Shown here one piece after another: positions 50,698-63,455 of a stretch of DNA of 64,000 bases. This DNA is from a virus. How positions within the stretch are numbered: the first letter of the stretch is position 1; every line of letters begins with the position of its first letter. The DNA lies in IMG/VR virus record IMGVR_UViG_3300042516_005631, positions 1 to 64,000 of that record. One strand, 5' to 3'. Below the pieces are notes generated by a model. The model was given only the letters and a program-made list of their open reading frames with translations, did no database searches and was not told the origin of the DNA. The translations under genes were made by a program, and so were the position numbers.

Positions 50698-50886
50698 TTA
50701 CCACCCTTGTACTTTGATCTTAGATCCTACCACCACACCATTTTCAAACCAGTAAAACACCAGCTTACCCTCAGGCGTTAAGACCGTGATTGTGGCTTGA
50801 TCTAAGTTACCGTCTATGTTCTGGATTCTGGGTCTATTAATCTTGATGAATGTGTCTACGCTCATGGCCCCAAAAGCCCGGATCAA
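50698..50886 (-). CDS. Hypothetical protein
   Basis: 62-aa ORF in a GC-richer segment; start uncertain. Confidence 0.45.
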   Translation of the reverse strand: MIRAFGAMSVDTFIKINRPRIQNIDGNLDQATITVLTPEGKLVFYWFENGVVVGSKIKVQGW

Positions 50887-50941
50887 CCGGGCTCACAGGG
50901 CGTATAATTAAAAAGATAAGTGCTGTCTCTCCAGCTGTCAT

Positions 50942-51010
50942 TTATTTCTCAAATACCATTATCATTACCGATCCAACAACCACTAAACCAAATATTACTG
51001 CTACCACCAT
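50942..51010 (-). CDS. 22-aa hydrophobic micropeptide
   Basis: MVVAVIFGLVVVGSVMIMVFEK, starts 1 nt after the previous stop. Confidence 0.45.
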   Translation of the reverse strand: MVVAVIFGLVVVGSVMIMVFEK

Positions 51011-51011
51011 T

Positions 51012-51080
51012 TTATCCTAGATTTACTAATATCAAATATTTAACTCCAATTACCAAACAACTTAATCCTAATACTACCAT
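51012..51080 (-). CDS. 22-aa hydrophobic micropeptide
   Basis: MVVLGLSCLVIGVKYLILVNLG directly downstream of the promoter element at 51101. Confidence 0.5.
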   Translation of the reverse strand: MVVLGLSCLVIGVKYLILVNLG

Positions 51081-51132
51081 TTGCTCTTTATTTATACTTT
51101 AATATACGAACTTTATTTTAAATGAGGTAGTC

Positions 51133-51453
51133 CTAAGCTGCTACCTCATTACCATCGCTCTTAACTTGAGCTGGTCGTCCTCGTTTCAAAGTACCATTTG
51201 CTCTTTTACTCTCTAATTCAGCTAATCTCATTTGTCTTACTGAATTTGGATTTACAGGTCGTCCTTGGCCAATACCGTTTGCTTTATTCTCTGCTTGTTT
51301 AGCTAATCGAATTTGTCTTTCTGAATCAGCTACTACAGGTCGTCCTCGTTTCAACTCTCCACTATTTCTTTTTAATTCTAATTCTTTTAATCTTAATTGT
51401 CTTACACTGTTTTCATTTACAGGACGTCCTAATTTTTTTACTTCATTTTTCAT
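51133..51453 (-). CDS. Repetitive basic protein with four GRP (AT-hook-like) motifs
   Basis: KLGRPV, KRGRPV, GQGRPV, KRGRPA, spaced about 28 aa apart. Confidence 0.8.
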   Translation of the reverse strand: MKNEVKKLGRPVNENSVRQLRLKELELKRNSGELKRGRPVVADSERQIRLAKQAENKANGIGQGRPVNPNSVRQMRLAELESKRANGTLKRGRPAQVKSDGNEVAA

Positions 51454-51523
51454 AACTTTTTTCTTTTTAAATTTAACTTATTTTCTTAACTTATTTATAC
51501 TGTAATATACGAATTACATTTTA

Positions 51524-51679
51524 ATTAACTTAGTCCTGAATTAACATTTTACTAATAAATTCTAAACACTCATCTTTATTATTAAAACTAAATCTATTTC
51601 CATTTTCATCATTAAAAAACCACCCTACTCTTTCATCAAATTTAACTAATATTCCTCTATAAACAAACATATTATTCAT
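51524..51679 (-). CDS. 51-aa cytosine-free early protein
   Basis: Hand translation MNNMFVYRGILVKFDERVGWFFNDENGNRFSFNNKDECLEFISKNVNSGLS behind promoter 51704. Confidence 0.65.
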
Positions 51680-51720
51680 CTTTTATTTTTTTAATTATAC
51701 ATCAATATACGAATTACTTA

Positions 51721-52047
51721 TTAAATTAACTCTTCCTGTTTTAAAGCAAATTGTTTCAATTCTTCTAGTTTATTATTTAATAATTCAATCATTTCAAGTT
51801 CACTTCCTCCAAAATAAAATACTCTACTCTTCATTCCTGGTACTTTCATTTCAAAACAATTATACAATCCTTTAGCTAATCCTCTTCTAAGCATATCAGC
51901 ATACTTCTTATTTGCTTCCCCTCCTTTACTCTTTCTATAATAACCAAATACTTCCTTTTGAATTTGTCCTTCAGTAGCTATAACTGTTAAATCTAAAAAT
52001 TCTACTATTTGCTTTACACTGTTTTGTTTTCTTCCTTTAAACCCCAT
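51721..52047 (-). CDS. Hypothetical early protein (possible winged helix)
   Basis: 108-aa ORF behind promoter 52074. Confidence 0.7.
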   Translation of the reverse strand: MGFKGRKQNSVKQIVEFLDLTVIATEGQIQKEVFGYYRKSKGGEANKKYADMLRRGLAKGLYNCFEMKVPGMKSRVFYFGGSELEMIELLNNKLEELKQFALKQEELI

Positions 52048-52107
52048 TTTCTTATCTTTTTTAATTATACTTCAATATACGAATTATTTATTAATTAATT
52101 TAGTCCT

Positions 52108-52214
52108 TTAATTTCTAAATAAAATACTTACAATTTTCTCATCTTCAACATTCAATTCTTTCACATCTAAAGTTTGATAAAAGAATGTATCTTCATCTAA
52201 GTCATTATCACTTA
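52108..52214 (-). pseudogene. 5'-truncated gene remnant
   Basis: Frame ..LSDNDLDEDTFFYQTLDVKELNVEDEKIVSILFRN* has no in-frame ATG; nearest ATG is ATG-ACT-TAG. Confidence 0.45.
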
Positions 52215-52250
52215 AATATACGATTCAATACTAAATTAATTTACTCCTAA

Positions 52251-52406
52251 TTAAAACCCAATTAAATCAATTGCTATTTCTCCTGTACTTTTACCATTAT
52301 AGGTAATCTCATAATTTGGGTCCATCCCGGAAATCATAATATGGGCGATAAGATCCCCAATCGTTTTAAACTCTACCTCGTAATAATCACAATTTAAACT
52401 ATACAT
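52251..52406 (-). CDS. 51-aa early protein, paralogue of 54301-54456
   Basis: MYSLNCDYYEVEFKTIGDLIAHIMISGMDPNYEITYNGKSTGEIAIDLIGF. Confidence 0.8.
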   Translation of the reverse strand: MYSLNCDYYEVEFKTIGDLIAHIMISGMDPNYEITYNGKSTGEIAIDLIGF

Positions 52407-52469
52407 AATTTATCATTTTTTAATTATACTTTAATATACGAATTATTTATTAATTTTACTATTCCTAAC

Positions 52470-52670
52470 TCAACAAAACTTATCTAATAAACCCTTATTC
52501 TCTAATTTAATTAAACAATTATTAACATTATAAGGATTCTTTCTTTTATAATTTTTCAACTCATCATTTACTAAATCCAAAAACTCCTTTTCATCATCCT
52601 CACTTACAAAATCAACTTCATCATATTCATTAATAAACAAATTTAACTCTTTAATACTTTCAAATTTCAT
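52470..52670 (-). CDS. Acidic early protein (nearly cytosine-free)
   Basis: Behind promoter 52695. Confidence 0.7.
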   Translation of the reverse strand: MKFESIKELNLFINEYDEVDFVSEDDEKEFLDLVNDELKNYKRKNPYNVNNCLIKLENKGLLDKFC

Positions 52671-52726
52671 ATCTTATCTTTTTAATTATACTGAAATATA
52701 CGAACTTAATTTTAACTCTGTTATTC

Positions 52727-52921
52727 CTATTTTAAATTAATAATTAAATCAAATAATAAATCCTCTAAACTATCATCACCCTTCCAACCTCTCTTATACA
52801 AATAATACTCCTTTACATCTTCTAAAGTTTCTAATTTATCAATATCTTTTTTTACCTCTAAAGCAAAATCCTCAAAACTCACTTCACATTCAAATTCAAA
52901 TACTTTTTCTGTTAATGTCAT
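52727..52921 (-). CDS. Acidic early protein
   Basis: Behind promoter 52946. Confidence 0.7.
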   Translation of the reverse strand: MTLTEKVFEFECEVSFEDFALEVKKDIDKLETLEDVKEYYLYKRGWKGDDSLEDLLFDLIINLK

Positions 52922-52982
52922 CTTTTATTTTTTTAATTATACATCAATATACGAATCTTAATTTAATTAACTTAGTCCTGAA

Positions 52983-53469: not shown

Positions 53470-53840
53470 AACGTTTCTTTTTAATTATACTTTAATATAC
53501 GAATCAATTTTTAAAGACACTAGTCCTTAATTAAGCAGTAAGGTGGCCTGCAATTTATTGCAAGCTTTTCTTTTATTTTAACAAACGTTCCATCACAGGT
53601 CATTCTGATGGGCTTATCCTGGGTATGTTTTGTTGTAGGAGAACATCCAAACTCATTCATTTACCAACACGAATACGCTATTTTCCGCCATGTTTTGTAG
53701 GTCCTGGGGATATTTCTGTGTCCTAATGCTGTTGCTATCCGTTACCCGTTTCCATTATGGAGAATACATTGTATTCAGTAATACATATGTGAAGGTAATG
53801 CCTTTTTATTGCTTTTCCAACTATTTTTTTAATTTCTTTT

Positions 53841-53871
53841 ACCCCCCTCTCCCCCAAGGGGGACGGGGGAG
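53841..53871. other. GC-rich inverted repeat in non-coding island
   Basis: acccccctctcccccaagggggacgggggag. Confidence 0.6.
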
Positions 53872-54000
53872 TCGCATTTTTTGTATATATTTTTGGAAAG
53901 AACGTAAAGGGGACGTGGCGATGTGGGGAAGGGTTAGACCCTAACATTCCCTAACACACCCTTAGTGACCTATATTTTCCACATACTATTTTAATTAATT

Positions 54001-54285
54001 TTCATTTCATTTGATAATTGACGTTTTGTGGTGATTGACATCCTTTCGGTAATTTCTGTTATTTATTGACGTTTTTCGTTCCGTGACGATTTTCATTGGT
54101 AATTTTTATTTTATGATAATTTCCGTTTTGTGGTGATTTTCATTGACGATTTTCATTCCCCATGTTGATTTTCATTCCACATAAACTAATCTAAACATTA
54201 GTTTAGCTTACATGTTAATTTCTATTCCTTGCGTTTATCTGTTGGTGATTTCTATCTTTGACGATTTCCTTGATAATTGACGTTC
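54001..54285. repeat. Cluster of degenerate ~10-bp iteron-like repeats
   Basis: About 14 copies of minus-strand AAAT(C/T)R(T/C/A)CA, plus longer duplicates ttgataattgacgtt, cgttttgtggtgatt and gattttcatt. Confidence 0.7.
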
Positions 54286-54300
54286 CTCGTTTTATACACG

Positions 54301-54456
54301 TTAAAATCCAATTAATTCAATTAACATTTCCCCTGTTAATTTTCCATTTCTAGTTATTTCATAATTAGGATCCATTCCTACTTGCATCGCATAATTAATC
54401 AATTCATCTATTGAACTAAACTCCTCTACAAAATAATTACAATTTAAACTATACAT
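54301..54456 (-). CDS. 51-aa early protein, paralogue of 52251-52406
   Basis: MYSLNCNYFVEEFSSIDELINYAMQVGMDPNYEITRNGKLTGEMLIELIGF. Confidence 0.8.
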   Translation of the reverse strand: MYSLNCNYFVEEFSSIDELINYAMQVGMDPNYEITRNGKLTGEMLIELIGF

Positions 54457-54508: not shown

Positions 54509-54709
54509 TTAGTCCTCTAAATCTTCTATAAATTTAGTTTTGGTAAGTATTTCTGTTCCCCATTCAATGTCATCATCCACTTCCTCACCTTCACCACGTT
54601 CTTCTCCTTCTATTATTTTCAATTCTGCTTCTTCTTGTGAATTAGCTTCAACAATATATTGTATTGTTTTAGTTGATTTTACTTCTGTTGTAATTCTAAA
54701 TACTTTCAT
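54509..54709 (-). CDS. Small acidic protein (DpnD/PcfM-like pattern)
   Basis: YIVEANSQEEAE; paralogue of 54947-55135. Confidence 0.75.
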   Translation of the reverse strand: MKVFRITTEVKSTKTIQYIVEANSQEEAELKIIEGEERGEGEEVDDDIEWGTEILTKTKFIEDLED

Positions 54710-54946: not shown

Positions 54947-55135
54947 CTAATCTATTTCCTCTTCTACAGTAATTACTTCACTTCCCCAATCATATTGTTC
55001 ATCAAATGTTATTCCATCACATCGGTGTTCTCCGTTTTGTAATTGTTCAAGTGCTTCCTCTAGTGAATCCGCTTCAATAAGATATTCTATTGTTGCTTTT
55101 ACTTGTACCTCTGTTTCAAATCTGAATTGTCCCAT
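54947..55135 (-). CDS. Small acidic protein (DpnD/PcfM-like pattern)
   Basis: YLIEADSLEEALE. Confidence 0.75.
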   Translation of the reverse strand: MGQFRFETEVQVKATIEYLIEADSLEEALEQLQNGEHRCDGITFDEQYDWGSEVITVEEEID

Positions 55136-58288: not shown

Positions 58289-58669
58289 CTATTTTTTATC
58301 AATTATCACTTCAACTTTAATTTCTCCATCTACAAAACGACTAACCTGAAAGTATTCTACTTCATCCATTGCTTTAATGTCTTTCTTTAATTTGTTTAAA
58401 GTTGTTTTATTTTTAATTGAGCCACAACTAAATGCAGGTGAATCAAAATACTTGATTCGATATGCTCCATACGGGTTTGTGTTTTTAACTATTTTCCAAT
58501 CATCATCAGTCAATAAGTCTAGTCTTTTATTTCTATCTTTAATTGTTGCTGAGTAGTGGTAGCCACAATTTTGGCAATTTACATATTGTTCTCCTGTTTT
58601 GTAATAGAAATCACTAAACGCTTCGTGTTCACAGTTTGGACACTCTATTTCATCTATAAAACTTCCCAT
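58289..58669 (-). CDS. Zinc-ribbon early protein
   Basis: CPNC..DFYYKTGE..CQNCGY. Confidence 0.78.
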   Translation of the reverse strand: MGSFIDEIECPNCEHEAFSDFYYKTGEQYVNCQNCGYHYSATIKDRNKRLDLLTDDDWKIVKNTNPYGAYRIKYFDSPAFSCGSIKNKTTLNKLKKDIKAMDEVEYFQVSRFVDGEIKVEVIIDKK

Positions 58670-63348: not shown

Positions 63349-63455
63349 TAGTCAGAACAGGATTCGAACCTGTAAGTGGGTTTATTCATTTCATTCTTAT
63401 ATCACCCTTTCATATAATCTTCTAGATAGCGTCTAACCAATTCCGCCACCTGACT
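63349..63455 (-). tRNA. tRNA-like element (Leu-type D arm, no canonical anticodon arm)
   Basis: Acceptor AGTCAGG/TCTGACT, D arm GCGGAATTGGTTAGACGC, T arm ACAGG-TTCGAAT-CCTGT; ~55-nt atypical middle; no encoded CCA. Confidence 0.7.

What the first reader, a model, noticed from the sequence alone, without database searches (positions are those of the whole stretch)
50940..52930. Early genes written almost without cytosine on the coding strand
Seen: the plus strand has no G over 51539-51710 (172 nt), only 2 G over 52441-52692 (252 nt) and none over 52721-52826. The mRNAs are therefore nearly C-free. The bias reaches the proteins: 51524-51679 has no Ala, Pro, Thr, His or Gln, and the only Cs in 52470-52670 are in its single Pro codon. 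G is common on the same strand, so low GC does not explain it, and late genes use C freely. Inference: selection against C in the earliest transcripts or DNA. Candidate pressures are ddhCTP chain termination (prokaryotic viperins), CTP depletion, C-containing endoribonuclease sites (e.g. MazF ACA), or restriction, since such skew removes all G/C-containing palindromes. Alternative: strand-specific C>T mutation near a terminus or under heavy transcription.
Basis: partly seen in the sequence, partly recalled or inferred. Interest (0 to 1): 0.8.

Follow-up and report, generated by a model that had tools for sequence, protein, structure and literature searches.

The report
Phage early genes written without cytosine
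Three tiny early genes of this Flavobacterium-type phage are spelled almost entirely with A, G and T, and natural selection demonstrably keeps cytosine out of them, a kind of gene I found described in no paper and whose purpose is still open.

Summary
Three small minus-strand genes (51530-51679, 52470-52670, 52727-52921) have 1.0-2.1% C on the coding strand. Other early genes have about 9-11% and late genes 12-15%; G stays near 20%. The trait belongs to single promoter-to-stop units, and C-free units are interleaved with normal ones that have the same promoter.

Across related phages the C content of 464 promoter-proximal ORFs is bimodal. The C-free class holds 28 ORFs from 19 unrelated families, some up to 585 nt.

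Selection is ongoing. Sixteen diverged copies of the 66-codon gene show 53 polymorphic columns and no new C, against about 23 expected (P~1e-10). Gln, His and CGN-Arg codons are lost as thoroughly as Ala codons, which C>T mutation alone cannot achieve.

The cultured relative Flavobacterium phage immuto has one such gene (immuto26A_128). All G in its DNA is replaced by fdPreQ1. Two other fully G-modified phages (CP220, phiST) have no C-free genes.

Restriction avoidance and mutation bias are disfavoured. The agent (CTP-directed block such as ddhCTP, C-dependent RNase, or modified template G) is unresolved. This scan has reported the same phenomenon before on other phage DNA.

The parts
52727..52921 (-). 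C-free gene, 64 aa, 4 C in 195 nt (2.1%), G 22.6%
   Evidence: The 4 Cs are in three Thr codons and one Ala codon. A 91% identical homologue in L125 also has 4 C.
52470..52670 (-). C-free gene, 66 aa, 2 C in 201 nt, both in the single Pro codon (CCT); predicted three-helix protein of unknown function
   Evidence: It has 42 protein homologues. In 16 of 17 unique DNA copies the only C-containing codon is codon 46. AlphaFold pLDDT is 84, with no fold or family match.
51530..51679 (-). C-free gene, 49 aa, 2 C in 150 nt, both inside the AGGAC box of the downstream promoter
   Evidence: Its homologues in L126 (70% identical) and L015 (53%) have 5 and 9 C.
51721..52047 (-). Intermediate gene, 108 aa, 5.8% C
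52251..52406 (-). Ordinary-composition gene (10.3% C) lying between C-free units; paralogue of 54301-54456
51133..51453 (-). Ordinary-composition gene (12% C), 106 aa with four RGRP/GRPV repeats; conserved in more than 25 related loci
50942..51080 (-). C-poor last unit of the array (4 C in about 140 nt) with two 22-aa hydrophobic micro-ORFs
   Evidence: It is conserved at about 81% in L041 and L131.
52937..52955 (-). Promoter-like element TTCGTATATTnnnGTATAA heading the 52727-52921 unit
52686..52704 (-). Promoter-like element heading the 52470-52670 unit
52424..52442 (-). Promoter-like element heading the 52251-52406 unit
52065..52083 (-). Promoter-like element heading the 51721-52047 unit
51695..51713 (-). 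Promoter-like element heading the 51530-51679 unit
51495..51513 (-). Promoter-like element heading the 51133-51453 unit
51092..51110 (-). Last promoter-like element of the array
50872..50892 (-). GC hairpin plus T-run (GCCCGG-TTGAT-CCGGGC-TTTT), terminator-like end of the promoter array
   Evidence: Read from the sequence. Composition returns to normal downstream of it.

Best explanation
Individual early promoter-to-stop cassettes of this T4-type, Flavobacterium-like phage are kept free of cytosine on the message strand by continuing purifying selection against every single C. The selection is not on a motif and is not a regional mutation bias.

Shown: the trait is real, specific to C, defined per transcription unit, recurrent in many unrelated gene families and phages, and actively maintained.

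Inferred: each C in these messages is a separate liability (single-hit logic). The genes concerned therefore have to be expressed under a condition in which cytidine positions fail. My preferred agent is something that acts on C during or after RNA synthesis. The first candidate (about 30%) is a CTP-directed block of transcription: ddhCTP-type chain terminators made by prokaryotic viperins, or CTP starvation. A C-free message needs no CTP at all, just as a laboratory G-less cassette needs no GTP. The second candidate (about 20%) is C-dependent endoribonucleases. On this reading the C-free genes would encode proteins, probably counter-defence or take-over factors, that must be made even while that agent is active.
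For: (1) Only C has a depleted class. 28 of 464 unique promoter-proximal ORFs have less than 2.5% C, against 2.4 expected from a beta-binomial fit of the main mode, and none are depleted in G, A or T. There are 41 C-poor blocks and 0 G-poor blocks on the promoter strand.
(2) C is depleted at all three codon positions. Arg uses CGN 0 times in 77 against 33.5% in normal genes, Ser uses TCN/AGC 5 times in 131 against 66%, Leu uses CTN 3 times in 349 against 24%, and NNC codons are 0-2% against 3-28%.
(3) 19 unrelated families are involved. Some families contain both C-free and normal members, for example 1 C against 36 C.
(4) Within this window, C counts per unit in transcription order are 24, 5, 2, 23, 19, 2, 43, then 4, and promoters and leaders do not differ between the two classes.
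(5) The 66-codon family has 53 polymorphic columns (42 with A/G) and 0 new C. About 23 were expected from neighbouring control families, Poisson P 8e-11, and 16 expected (P~1e-7) even using the lowest control ratio.
(6) Continued exclusion of single Cs from genes that have only 0-2 C fits a single-hit mechanism and does not fit threshold mechanisms.
(7) Bacterial viperins make ddhCTP chain terminators (PMC10732462).
Against: No agent was identified, and no viperin, RNase or CTP-metabolism link could be tested because I had no host genome. Prokaryotic viperins are, to my knowledge, rare, and are thought to act mainly on phage-encoded single-subunit RNAPs, whereas this phage shows no RNAP of its own in the parts I scanned. 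The C-free proteins have no recognisable function, so their role as counter-defence factors is a guess. Early timing of expression is inferred, not shown. The phage group fully replaces G in its DNA, which offers a rival DNA-side reading of the same pattern.
Confidence: 0.5

Rival explanations
1. Template-strand reading. In this phage group every G of the virion DNA is replaced by the bulky base fdPreQ1. A C-free message means a G-free template strand, so these would be the only genes whose template carries no modified base. The host RNA polymerase could then transcribe them at full speed from the injected DNA, making them a composition-encoded immediate-early class or kick-starter genes.
For: The cultured syntenic relative immuto has dG completely replaced by fdPreQ1, inserted by DpdA3 after replication (PMC10516641), and it has one C-free gene, immuto26A_128, with 5 C in 357 nt. 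DpdA3 and QueE homologues occur in related contigs, including G005, which carries the closest homologues of two of the window's C-free genes. A cost per modified base would give the single-hit logic. Mid-sized 7-deazapurine substituents are only partly tolerated by bacterial RNAPs (PMC4838386).
Against: Two other fully G-substituted phages have no C-free gene: CP220 (214 ORFs, minimum C at least 6%) and Cellulophaga phiST (112 ORFs, minimum 7.7%). All other early and late genes of immuto-type phages carry 9-15% C and must also be read from modified DNA. In PMC4838386 the inhibition was judged to act at initiation, not per template base, and promoters of C-free and normal cassettes are the same. 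DpdA3 and Que genes were not found in this contig, which is only 59% complete.
Confidence: 0.2
2. Rho-proof or structure-free messages. Rho loads on C-rich, G-poor unstructured RNA, and without C an RNA cannot form G-C pairs. C-free messages would therefore escape Rho-dependent silencing of foreign transcripts and stay unfolded for SD-less translation in Bacteroidota.
For: C-free messages are predicted to be less structured, at -10.3 against -14.8 kcal/mol per 100 nt, P 2e-16. Leaders are A-rich and lack a Shine-Dalgarno sequence. An earlier scan note describes the mirror case, a G-free C-rich leader read as a Rho loader.
Against: Both effects need many Cs or pairs, so selection should fade once C is scarce. 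Instead single new Cs are still excluded from genes with 0-2 C and the distribution peaks at zero. All early genes already have C at about half the level of G.
Confidence: 0.1
3. Mutation, not selection. Transcription-associated or enzyme-driven deamination of C on the exposed non-template strand (C>T) has erased C from very heavily transcribed cassettes.
For: T rises where C falls, at third codon positions from 36.6% to 48.0%. Cys, Phe and Tyr are enriched, as expected from CGT>TGT, CTT/TCT>TTT and CAT>TAT changes.
Against: Adjacent units with indistinguishable promoters keep 10-12% C. Gln, His and CGN-Arg, which need transversions or would pass through stop codons, are depleted 14-17-fold or completely. 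In mixed families C-containing codons are replaced conservatively (Q to E/N/D, H to N/D/E) rather than along the C>T path, though from only 66 codons. No T>C back-mutations have accumulated while neighbouring genes gain C normally.
Confidence: 0.05
4. Restriction-proof DNA. A strand without C cannot contain any palindromic site that includes G or C, which would protect first-entering DNA, as in the T5 first-step-transfer region.
For: The logic holds: no G/C-containing palindrome can exist in a stretch where one strand lacks C. The C-free units lie at the distal end of the early array in this contig.
Against: C-free units are 175-240-nt islands separated by C-containing units, and in other phages they sit in the middle of arrays, so the DNA molecule as a whole stays cleavable. 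The terminase is T4-like, and no genome end is evident here. In the cultured relative, DNA with fully modified G already resists enzymes whose sites contain G.
Confidence: 0.02

Closest known systems
ACA-less, MazF-resistant mRNAs (natural site-free genes and the engineered single-protein-production system; from my own knowledge, Suzuki et al. 2005)
   Same: A message escapes a sequence-directed RNA attack by not containing the target, and synonymous and amino-acid choices are bent to achieve that.
   Different: Here the whole nucleotide is banned in every context. ACA is among the few residual C contexts, so no specific motif is being avoided. No RNase has been identified.
G-less cassette transcription templates (laboratory tool; from my own knowledge, Sawadogo and Roeder 1985)
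   Same: A transcription unit that lacks one nucleotide can be transcribed without that NTP and is immune to chain terminators of that NTP.
   Different: The cassette is an artificial, non-coding tool. Here natural protein-coding genes achieve the same property for C and are kept that way by selection.
PeSL (promoter-early stem-loop) cassettes of T4-type phages (Arbiol et al. 2010; named in earlier scan notes, not read here)
   Same: Arrays of small, swappable early genes, each with its own copy of a conserved early promoter, in a T4-type phage.
   Different: No composition trait has been described for PeSL cassettes. The promoter here is different: AGGA-N20-TTCGTATATTnnnGTATAA, with a Bacteroidota-like version in immuto.
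Fully 7-deazaguanine-substituted phage DNA made by DpdA3 (immuto fdPreQ1, phiST dDG, CP220 dADG; PMC10516641)
   Same: The cultured relative and related contigs carry this pathway. 'No C in the message' is the same statement as 'no modified base in the template strand'.
   Different: The modification is genome-wide while the C-free trait affects 1-8 small genes per phage. Two of the three fully modified phage groups have no C-free genes. The pathway was not found on this incomplete contig.
C depletion of coronavirus genomes attributed to CTP supply, viperin or APOBEC (preprint 10.1101/2020.06.20.162933; abstract seen)
   Same: The idea that availability of, or attack on, cytidine nucleotides shapes viral sequence composition.
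   Different: That depletion is a mild, genome-wide drift in an RNA virus and may be mutational. Here the trait is a near-absolute, gene-by-gene ban in a DNA phage that has been shown to be selective.
Restriction-site avoidance and the site-poor first-step-transfer DNA of coliphage T5 (from my own knowledge)
   Same: Early-region sequence composition acting as passive immunity.
   Different: The mosaic of short units does not protect a DNA molecule. See the restriction rival explanation.

Membership tests
Promoter-delimited early gene cassettes of T4-type phages (PeSL-like) | Many co-oriented copies of one conserved early promoter, each directly upstream of a small ORF | tested here: met
   There are 22 copies on the minus strand from 67172 down to 51092, each 10-50 nt upstream of an ATG, against about 1 expected by chance.
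Promoter-delimited early gene cassettes of T4-type phages (PeSL-like) | Stem-loop paired with the promoter at cassette borders | tested here: inconclusive
   Hairpins were seen only at 51121-51150 and 50876-92. C-free units cannot form G-C stems. I did not examine this systematically.
Promoter-delimited early gene cassettes of T4-type phages (PeSL-like) | Cassettes shuffled between related phages | tested here: met
   The same families appear in different orders and with different neighbours across loci. For example, L146 and L147 carry different C-free genes downstream of the same family-11 gene.
Motif-avoiding (e.g. ACA-less) RNase-resistant mRNAs | A specific short motif is absent while the nucleotide is otherwise used | tested here: not met
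   All C contexts are depleted. The residual Cs include ACA (9), TCA (10) and ACT (21).
Restriction-proof leading DNA (T5 FST-like) | One contiguous first-entering segment is free of sites | tested here: not met
   C-free units alternate with units carrying 19-43 C, and in other phages they lie mid-array. The order of DNA entry is not testable with these tools.
Deaminase or transcription-associated C>T hypermutation footprint | Losses follow the C>T path and are not maintained once the mutator is gone | tested here: not met
   Gln, His and CGN-Arg are removed completely. Zero C gains against about 23 expected.
Phages with fully 7-deazaguanine-substituted DNA (DpdA3 type) | Encodes DpdA3 plus the FolE/QueD/QueE(/QueC/QueF) pathway | tested here: inconclusive
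   No match in this contig, which CheckV rates 59% complete. By synteny with immuto the pathway would lie off-contig. It is present in the relatives G005, G006 (QueE only) and G007, and in immuto.
Phages with fully 7-deazaguanine-substituted DNA (DpdA3 type) | dG absent from virion DNA | not testable with these tools
   This needs LC-MS of virion DNA. It has been shown only for immuto, phiST and CP220 (PMC10516641).
Rho-evading (rut-free) transcripts | A low C/G ratio is sufficient, with no selection on single Cs once C is scarce | tested here: not met
   Single-C gains are still excluded from genes with only 0-2 C, and the distribution peaks at zero rather than levelling off at a low value.

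The most novel reading that the evidence does not exclude
'Three-letter genes' are a general, so far undescribed phage strategy. A small set of early messages is written without cytosine so that they can be made and survive while a cytidine-directed host attack is in force, such as ddhCTP-type chain terminators, CTP depletion or C-dependent RNases. An equivalent reading is that they can be read from fully G-modified injected DNA. C-freeness would then flag the encoded proteins, here 19 or more unrelated families of unknown function, as first-line counter-defence or take-over factors.
Probability: 0.4. Interest if true: 0.9.

Novelty: categorically new. Interest (0 to 1): 0.8.

Why it matters
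If selection really bans one nucleotide from whole protein-coding genes, base composition itself is being used as a functional property of a message. That goes beyond codon bias, motif avoidance and strand skew. It would point to a cytidine-directed process in infected Bacteroidota cells strong enough to remove five amino acids from proteins. It would also give a purely sequence-based flag for a set of otherwise unannotatable early phage proteins that are probably important in the first minutes of infection. The trait exists in a cultured pair (Flavobacterium sp. LMO8 and phage vB_FspM_immuto_2-6A, gene immuto26A_128), so the idea is directly testable. It may also show how host RNA polymerase copes with DNA in which every G carries a bulky 7-deazaguanine group.

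Tried and rejected
- **Function of the C-free proteins.** Pfam and PHROGs scans of the window's small proteins and of eight larger C-free proteins from other phages gave no family. The AlphaFold model of the 66-aa protein (pLDDT 84) had no Foldseek match in PDB or BFVD. The ESM Atlas returned only noise-level hits.
- **Structured RNAs.** The Rfam and tRNA scans found nothing in the flagged region.
- **DNA similarity.** A 4-kb query against cultured phages gave no match.
- **Promoter subtype.** In this window the C-free units have GTATAAttaaaaa while upstream units have GTATAAataaaaa. That difference did not hold across loci, so I rejected a separate promoter class.
- **G-poor sub-lineage.** An earlier scan note claims that a sub-lineage of a 66-codon C-free gene is written with minimal G instead. 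I could not reproduce this in this family: the divergent members L146 and L147 have 3% C and 21% G.
- **Other fully G-modified phages.** The prediction that they also have C-free genes failed for CP220 and phiST.
- **DpdA in this contig.** Pfam TGT, and the immuto DpdA3 and QueE proteins, gave no hit, but the contig is only 59% complete.
- **Host-clade genome handle.** My attempt to get one through GDP-mannose dehydratase returned only unrelated phyla, so I could not test how common viperins are in Flavobacteriaceae.
- **Literature.** Searches for cytosine-free phage genes, ddhCTP with early genes, and CTP depletion with phage found no precedent.
Full report
**1. Setting**

The window is the first 64 kb of a single 95,454-bp phage contig, which CheckV rates 59% complete. 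Nearly all genes are on the minus strand.

The phage is tailed and T4-type. [quoted passage not shown]

A conserved promoter-like element, TTCGTATATTnnnGTATAA with an AGGA box 20 nt upstream, occurs 22 times on the minus strand from 67172 down to 51092. About one copy would be expected by chance. Each copy is followed by an A-rich leader without a Shine-Dalgarno sequence and then an ATG. The flagged interval is the distal end of this array. The array ends in a GC hairpin plus T-run at 50872-50892.

That the array is 'early' is an inference from this architecture. I found no phage RNA polymerase, sigma factor, or nucleotide-modification or CTP-metabolism gene in the roughly 60 proteins I scanned.

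**2.

These intervals contain the three longest G-free runs of the genome (172, 157 and 106 nt). In shuffles of the early region the longest run averaged 71 nt and never exceeded 147. The lowest G count in any 250-nt window is 2, against at least 7 in shuffles.

Coding-strand C compares as follows:

| Gene or class | C on coding strand |
|---|---|
| 51530-51679 | 1.3% |
| 52470-52670 | 1.0% |
| 52727-52921 | 2.1% |
| Other array genes | about 9-11% |
| Structural genes | 12-15% |

G stays at 20-23% in the three genes.

Two details need correcting. The first ORF does contain one Gln, and its two Cs lie in the AGGAC box of the next promoter. Also, the interval is a mosaic. Counting C from the predicted transcription start to the next promoter gives, in transcription order, 24, 5, 2, 23, 19, 2, 43, and then 4 in the last roughly 140 nt.

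**3. It is a class of genes, not a local accident**

Homologue searches added 34 more loci.

I took the first ORF after every promoter copy, which gave 464 unique ORFs. Their coding-strand C content is bimodal, with a main mode at 10-11% and a separate spike at 0-2%. A beta-binomial fit of the main mode predicts 2.4 ORFs below 2.5% C, and 28 are observed. No ORF is depleted in G, A or T. On the promoter strand there are 41 C-poor blocks of at least 250 nt and no G-poor blocks, and block edges coincide with cassette edges.

The 28 ORFs fall into 19 unrelated BLAST families. Some are long: 585 nt with 5 C, 429 nt with 1 C, 369 nt with 1 C, and 324 nt with 0 C. L147 adds a 465-nt gene with 4 C.

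Some families are C-free in every member. Others contain both states, for example 1 C against 36 C in family 46. The state is therefore gained and lost, and is not a by-product of one protein's composition.

**4. It acts on the nucleotide and reaches the protein**

In the C-free class, C is 0.8, 1.5 and 0.5% at codon positions 1, 2 and 3. In the main class it is 10.3, 14.7 and 8.4%.

Synonymous choice is absolute:

| Codon family | C-containing codons, C-free class | Main class |
|---|---|---|
| Arg (CGN) | 0 of 77 | 33.5% |
| Ser (TCN/AGC) | 5 of 131 | 66% |
| Leu (CTN) | 3 of 349 | 24% |
| NNC codons | 0-2% | 3-28% |

Ala, Gln, His, Thr and Pro are 6-17 times rarer. Cys, Phe, Glu, Asp and Asn are enriched.

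**5. Selection is ongoing and gene-specific**

The 66-codon gene (52470-52670) has 42 protein homologues at 77-94% identity. It varies at about 20 positions yet almost never uses a residue that requires C.

Of 17 unique DNA copies, 16 have C only in codon 46, either CCT (Pro) or TCT (Ser). Those 16 copies are 85-97% identical to each other and have 53 polymorphic columns. Of these, 42 involve A/G, 21 involve T against A or G, and none shows a newly gained C.

Control families in the same loci have C in 27-50% of their polymorphic columns. Using A/G changes as a clock and the seven control families as the yardstick, about 23 C-gain columns are expected and none is seen (Poisson P 8e-11). Even the lowest control ratio gives 16 expected.

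Third positions vary more than first and second positions (29 against 12 and 12 columns), so the gene is a real coding sequence under protein-level constraint.

**6. What this excludes**

*Mutation bias.* Units with indistinguishable promoters and leaders sit side by side with 2 and 23 C. Gln, His and CGN-Arg cannot be removed by C>T changes, because CAA would become a stop codon, yet they are gone. In mixed families the replacements are conservative (Q to E/N/D, H to N/D/E), although this rests on only 66 codons. Back-mutations to C do not accumulate.

*Restriction avoidance.* Islands of about 200 nt inside C-containing DNA cannot protect the molecule, and in other phages the C-free units lie mid-array. 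In the cultured relative every G is already modified and the DNA resists enzymes with G in their sites.

*A specific RNase motif such as ACA.* ACA is among the residual contexts.

*Threshold-type effects (escape from Rho loading, unfolded mRNA).* These fit the direction of the bias. Predicted folding energy is -10.3 against -14.8 kcal/mol per 100 nt. They do not fit the continued exclusion of single Cs from genes that have almost none.

**7. The cultured relative and the G-modification lead**

[quoted passage not shown] It has a related promoter family with a Bacteroidota-like -33 GTTGC element. Exactly one of its 223 ORFs is C-free: immuto26A_128, 118 aa, with 5 C in 357 nt and 24.9% G.

Its genome encodes FolE, QueD, QueE, QueC, QueF and DpdA. 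Published mass spectrometry shows its dG completely replaced by 7-(formylamino)methyl-7-deazaguanine, inserted after replication by a DpdA3-type enzyme (PMC10516641).

DpdA3 and QueE homologues occur in related contigs. One of them, G005, carries the closest homologues of two of this window's C-free genes. Neither was found in this contig, but by synteny that genome segment is missing from it.

A C-free message is by definition a G-free template strand, so these would be the only genes whose template carries no modified base. I tested the obvious prediction on two other fully G-substituted phages.

- Campylobacter phage CP220 (dADG) has 214 ORFs, all with at least 6% C.
- Cellulophaga phage phiST (dDG, flavobacterial host) has 112 ORFs, with a minimum of 7.7% C.

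Complete G replacement is therefore not sufficient. Bacterial RNAPs tolerate small 7-deazapurine groups perfectly and mid-sized ones partly, with the effect judged to lie at initiation (PMC4838386). That leaves room only for an effect specific to the bulkier fdPreQ1.

**8. Most likely working**

Shown: there is per-unit, per-site purifying selection against C in particular cassette genes.

Inferred: every C is an independent risk for that message.

I put about 50% on an agent that acts at cytidines during or after RNA synthesis. That divides into about 30% for CTP-directed interference (viperin-type ddhCTP chain terminators, per PMC10732462, or CTP starvation) and about 20% for C-dependent ribonucleases. 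The remaining weights are:

- about 20% on the modified-template reading
- about 10% on Rho or RNA structure
- about 5% on mutation
- about 2% on restriction
- the rest on something unknown

The logic that only one to eight genes per phage need the trait fits genes whose products must be made while the block is in force. The proteins themselves give no functional clue.

**9. Novelty**

Eight full-text searches found no description of C-free phage genes. Earlier notes of this same scan report the phenomenon on other phage DNA. They include a 142-codon gene in a Flavobacterium-type phage and another T4-type phage of Flavobacterium-like bacteria, with the same open conclusion. I treat those notes as agreement, not as evidence.

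**10. Limits**

- No host genome was available, so the defence repertoire could not be examined.
- Expression timing, DNA chemistry of this particular phage and protein functions are untested.

Noticed in passing
window 53660-54300 (minus strand), especially 54084-54267: A GC-richer stretch without good ORFs inside the promoter array. It carries 7 copies of AAATYRYCA within 184 nt (iteron-like), followed by a G/C-rich hairpin region. It is conserved at 74-84% in related loci (L041, L131, L120). It could be an origin or a protein-binding array. There is no Rfam match.
   Followed up: partly
window 50942-51080 (minus strand): Two consecutive 22-aa, strongly hydrophobic micro-ORFs (starting MVVLGLSC... 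and MVVAVIFG...) follow the last promoter of the array. The unit is also C-poor (4 C in about 140 nt) and about 81% conserved in two related loci.
   Followed up: partly
window 51133-51453 (minus strand): A 106-aa protein built from four repeats, each containing an RGRP/GRPV motif that resembles an AT-hook, which would suggest minor-groove binding to AT-rich DNA. It has normal C content and homologues in more than 25 related loci, often right next to the 66-codon C-free gene.
   Followed up: no
window 52251-52406 and 54301-54456; 54509-54709 and 54947-55135: Two pairs of paralogous small early genes within the array. The 51-aa pair has 10.3% and 4.5% C, so paralogues differ in C content.
   Followed up: no
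L155 10950-26230 (Flavobacterium phage immuto, record 60.9-76.2 kb): About 25 copies of a related promoter, GTTGC-N16-TTCnTATATTTAGGTATCAataattaaaaca. The -33-like GTTGC box occupies the place where this window's phage has an AGGA box. The two phages therefore share the downstream element but differ in the upstream one.
   Followed up: partly
window 63349-63455 (minus strand): An Rfam tRNA match (32 bits, 107 nt) that ARAGORN does not call. An earlier scan note describes it as an anticodon-less tRNA-like RNA.
   Followed up: no
window 58289-58669 (minus strand): A 126-aa early protein with a weak zinc-ribbon match to the Lar restriction-alleviation family (E 2.5e-4, below the Pfam cut-off).
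   Followed up: no
G000 77.8-88.2 kb (L153/L154): A large cluster of glycosyltransferases, GDP-mannose 4,6-dehydratase and FkbM-type methyltransferases, syntenic with a similar cluster in phage immuto. Its substrate (virion, host surface or DNA) is unknown.
   Followed up: no
L015 (about 1.6 kb plus flanking blocks) and L084 (first 2 kb): These are the longest runs of consecutive C-free cassettes: 1,640 nt with 31 C against 353 G, and 2,016 nt with 29 C against 414 G. Some relatives therefore carry five to eight such genes in a row.
   Followed up: partly
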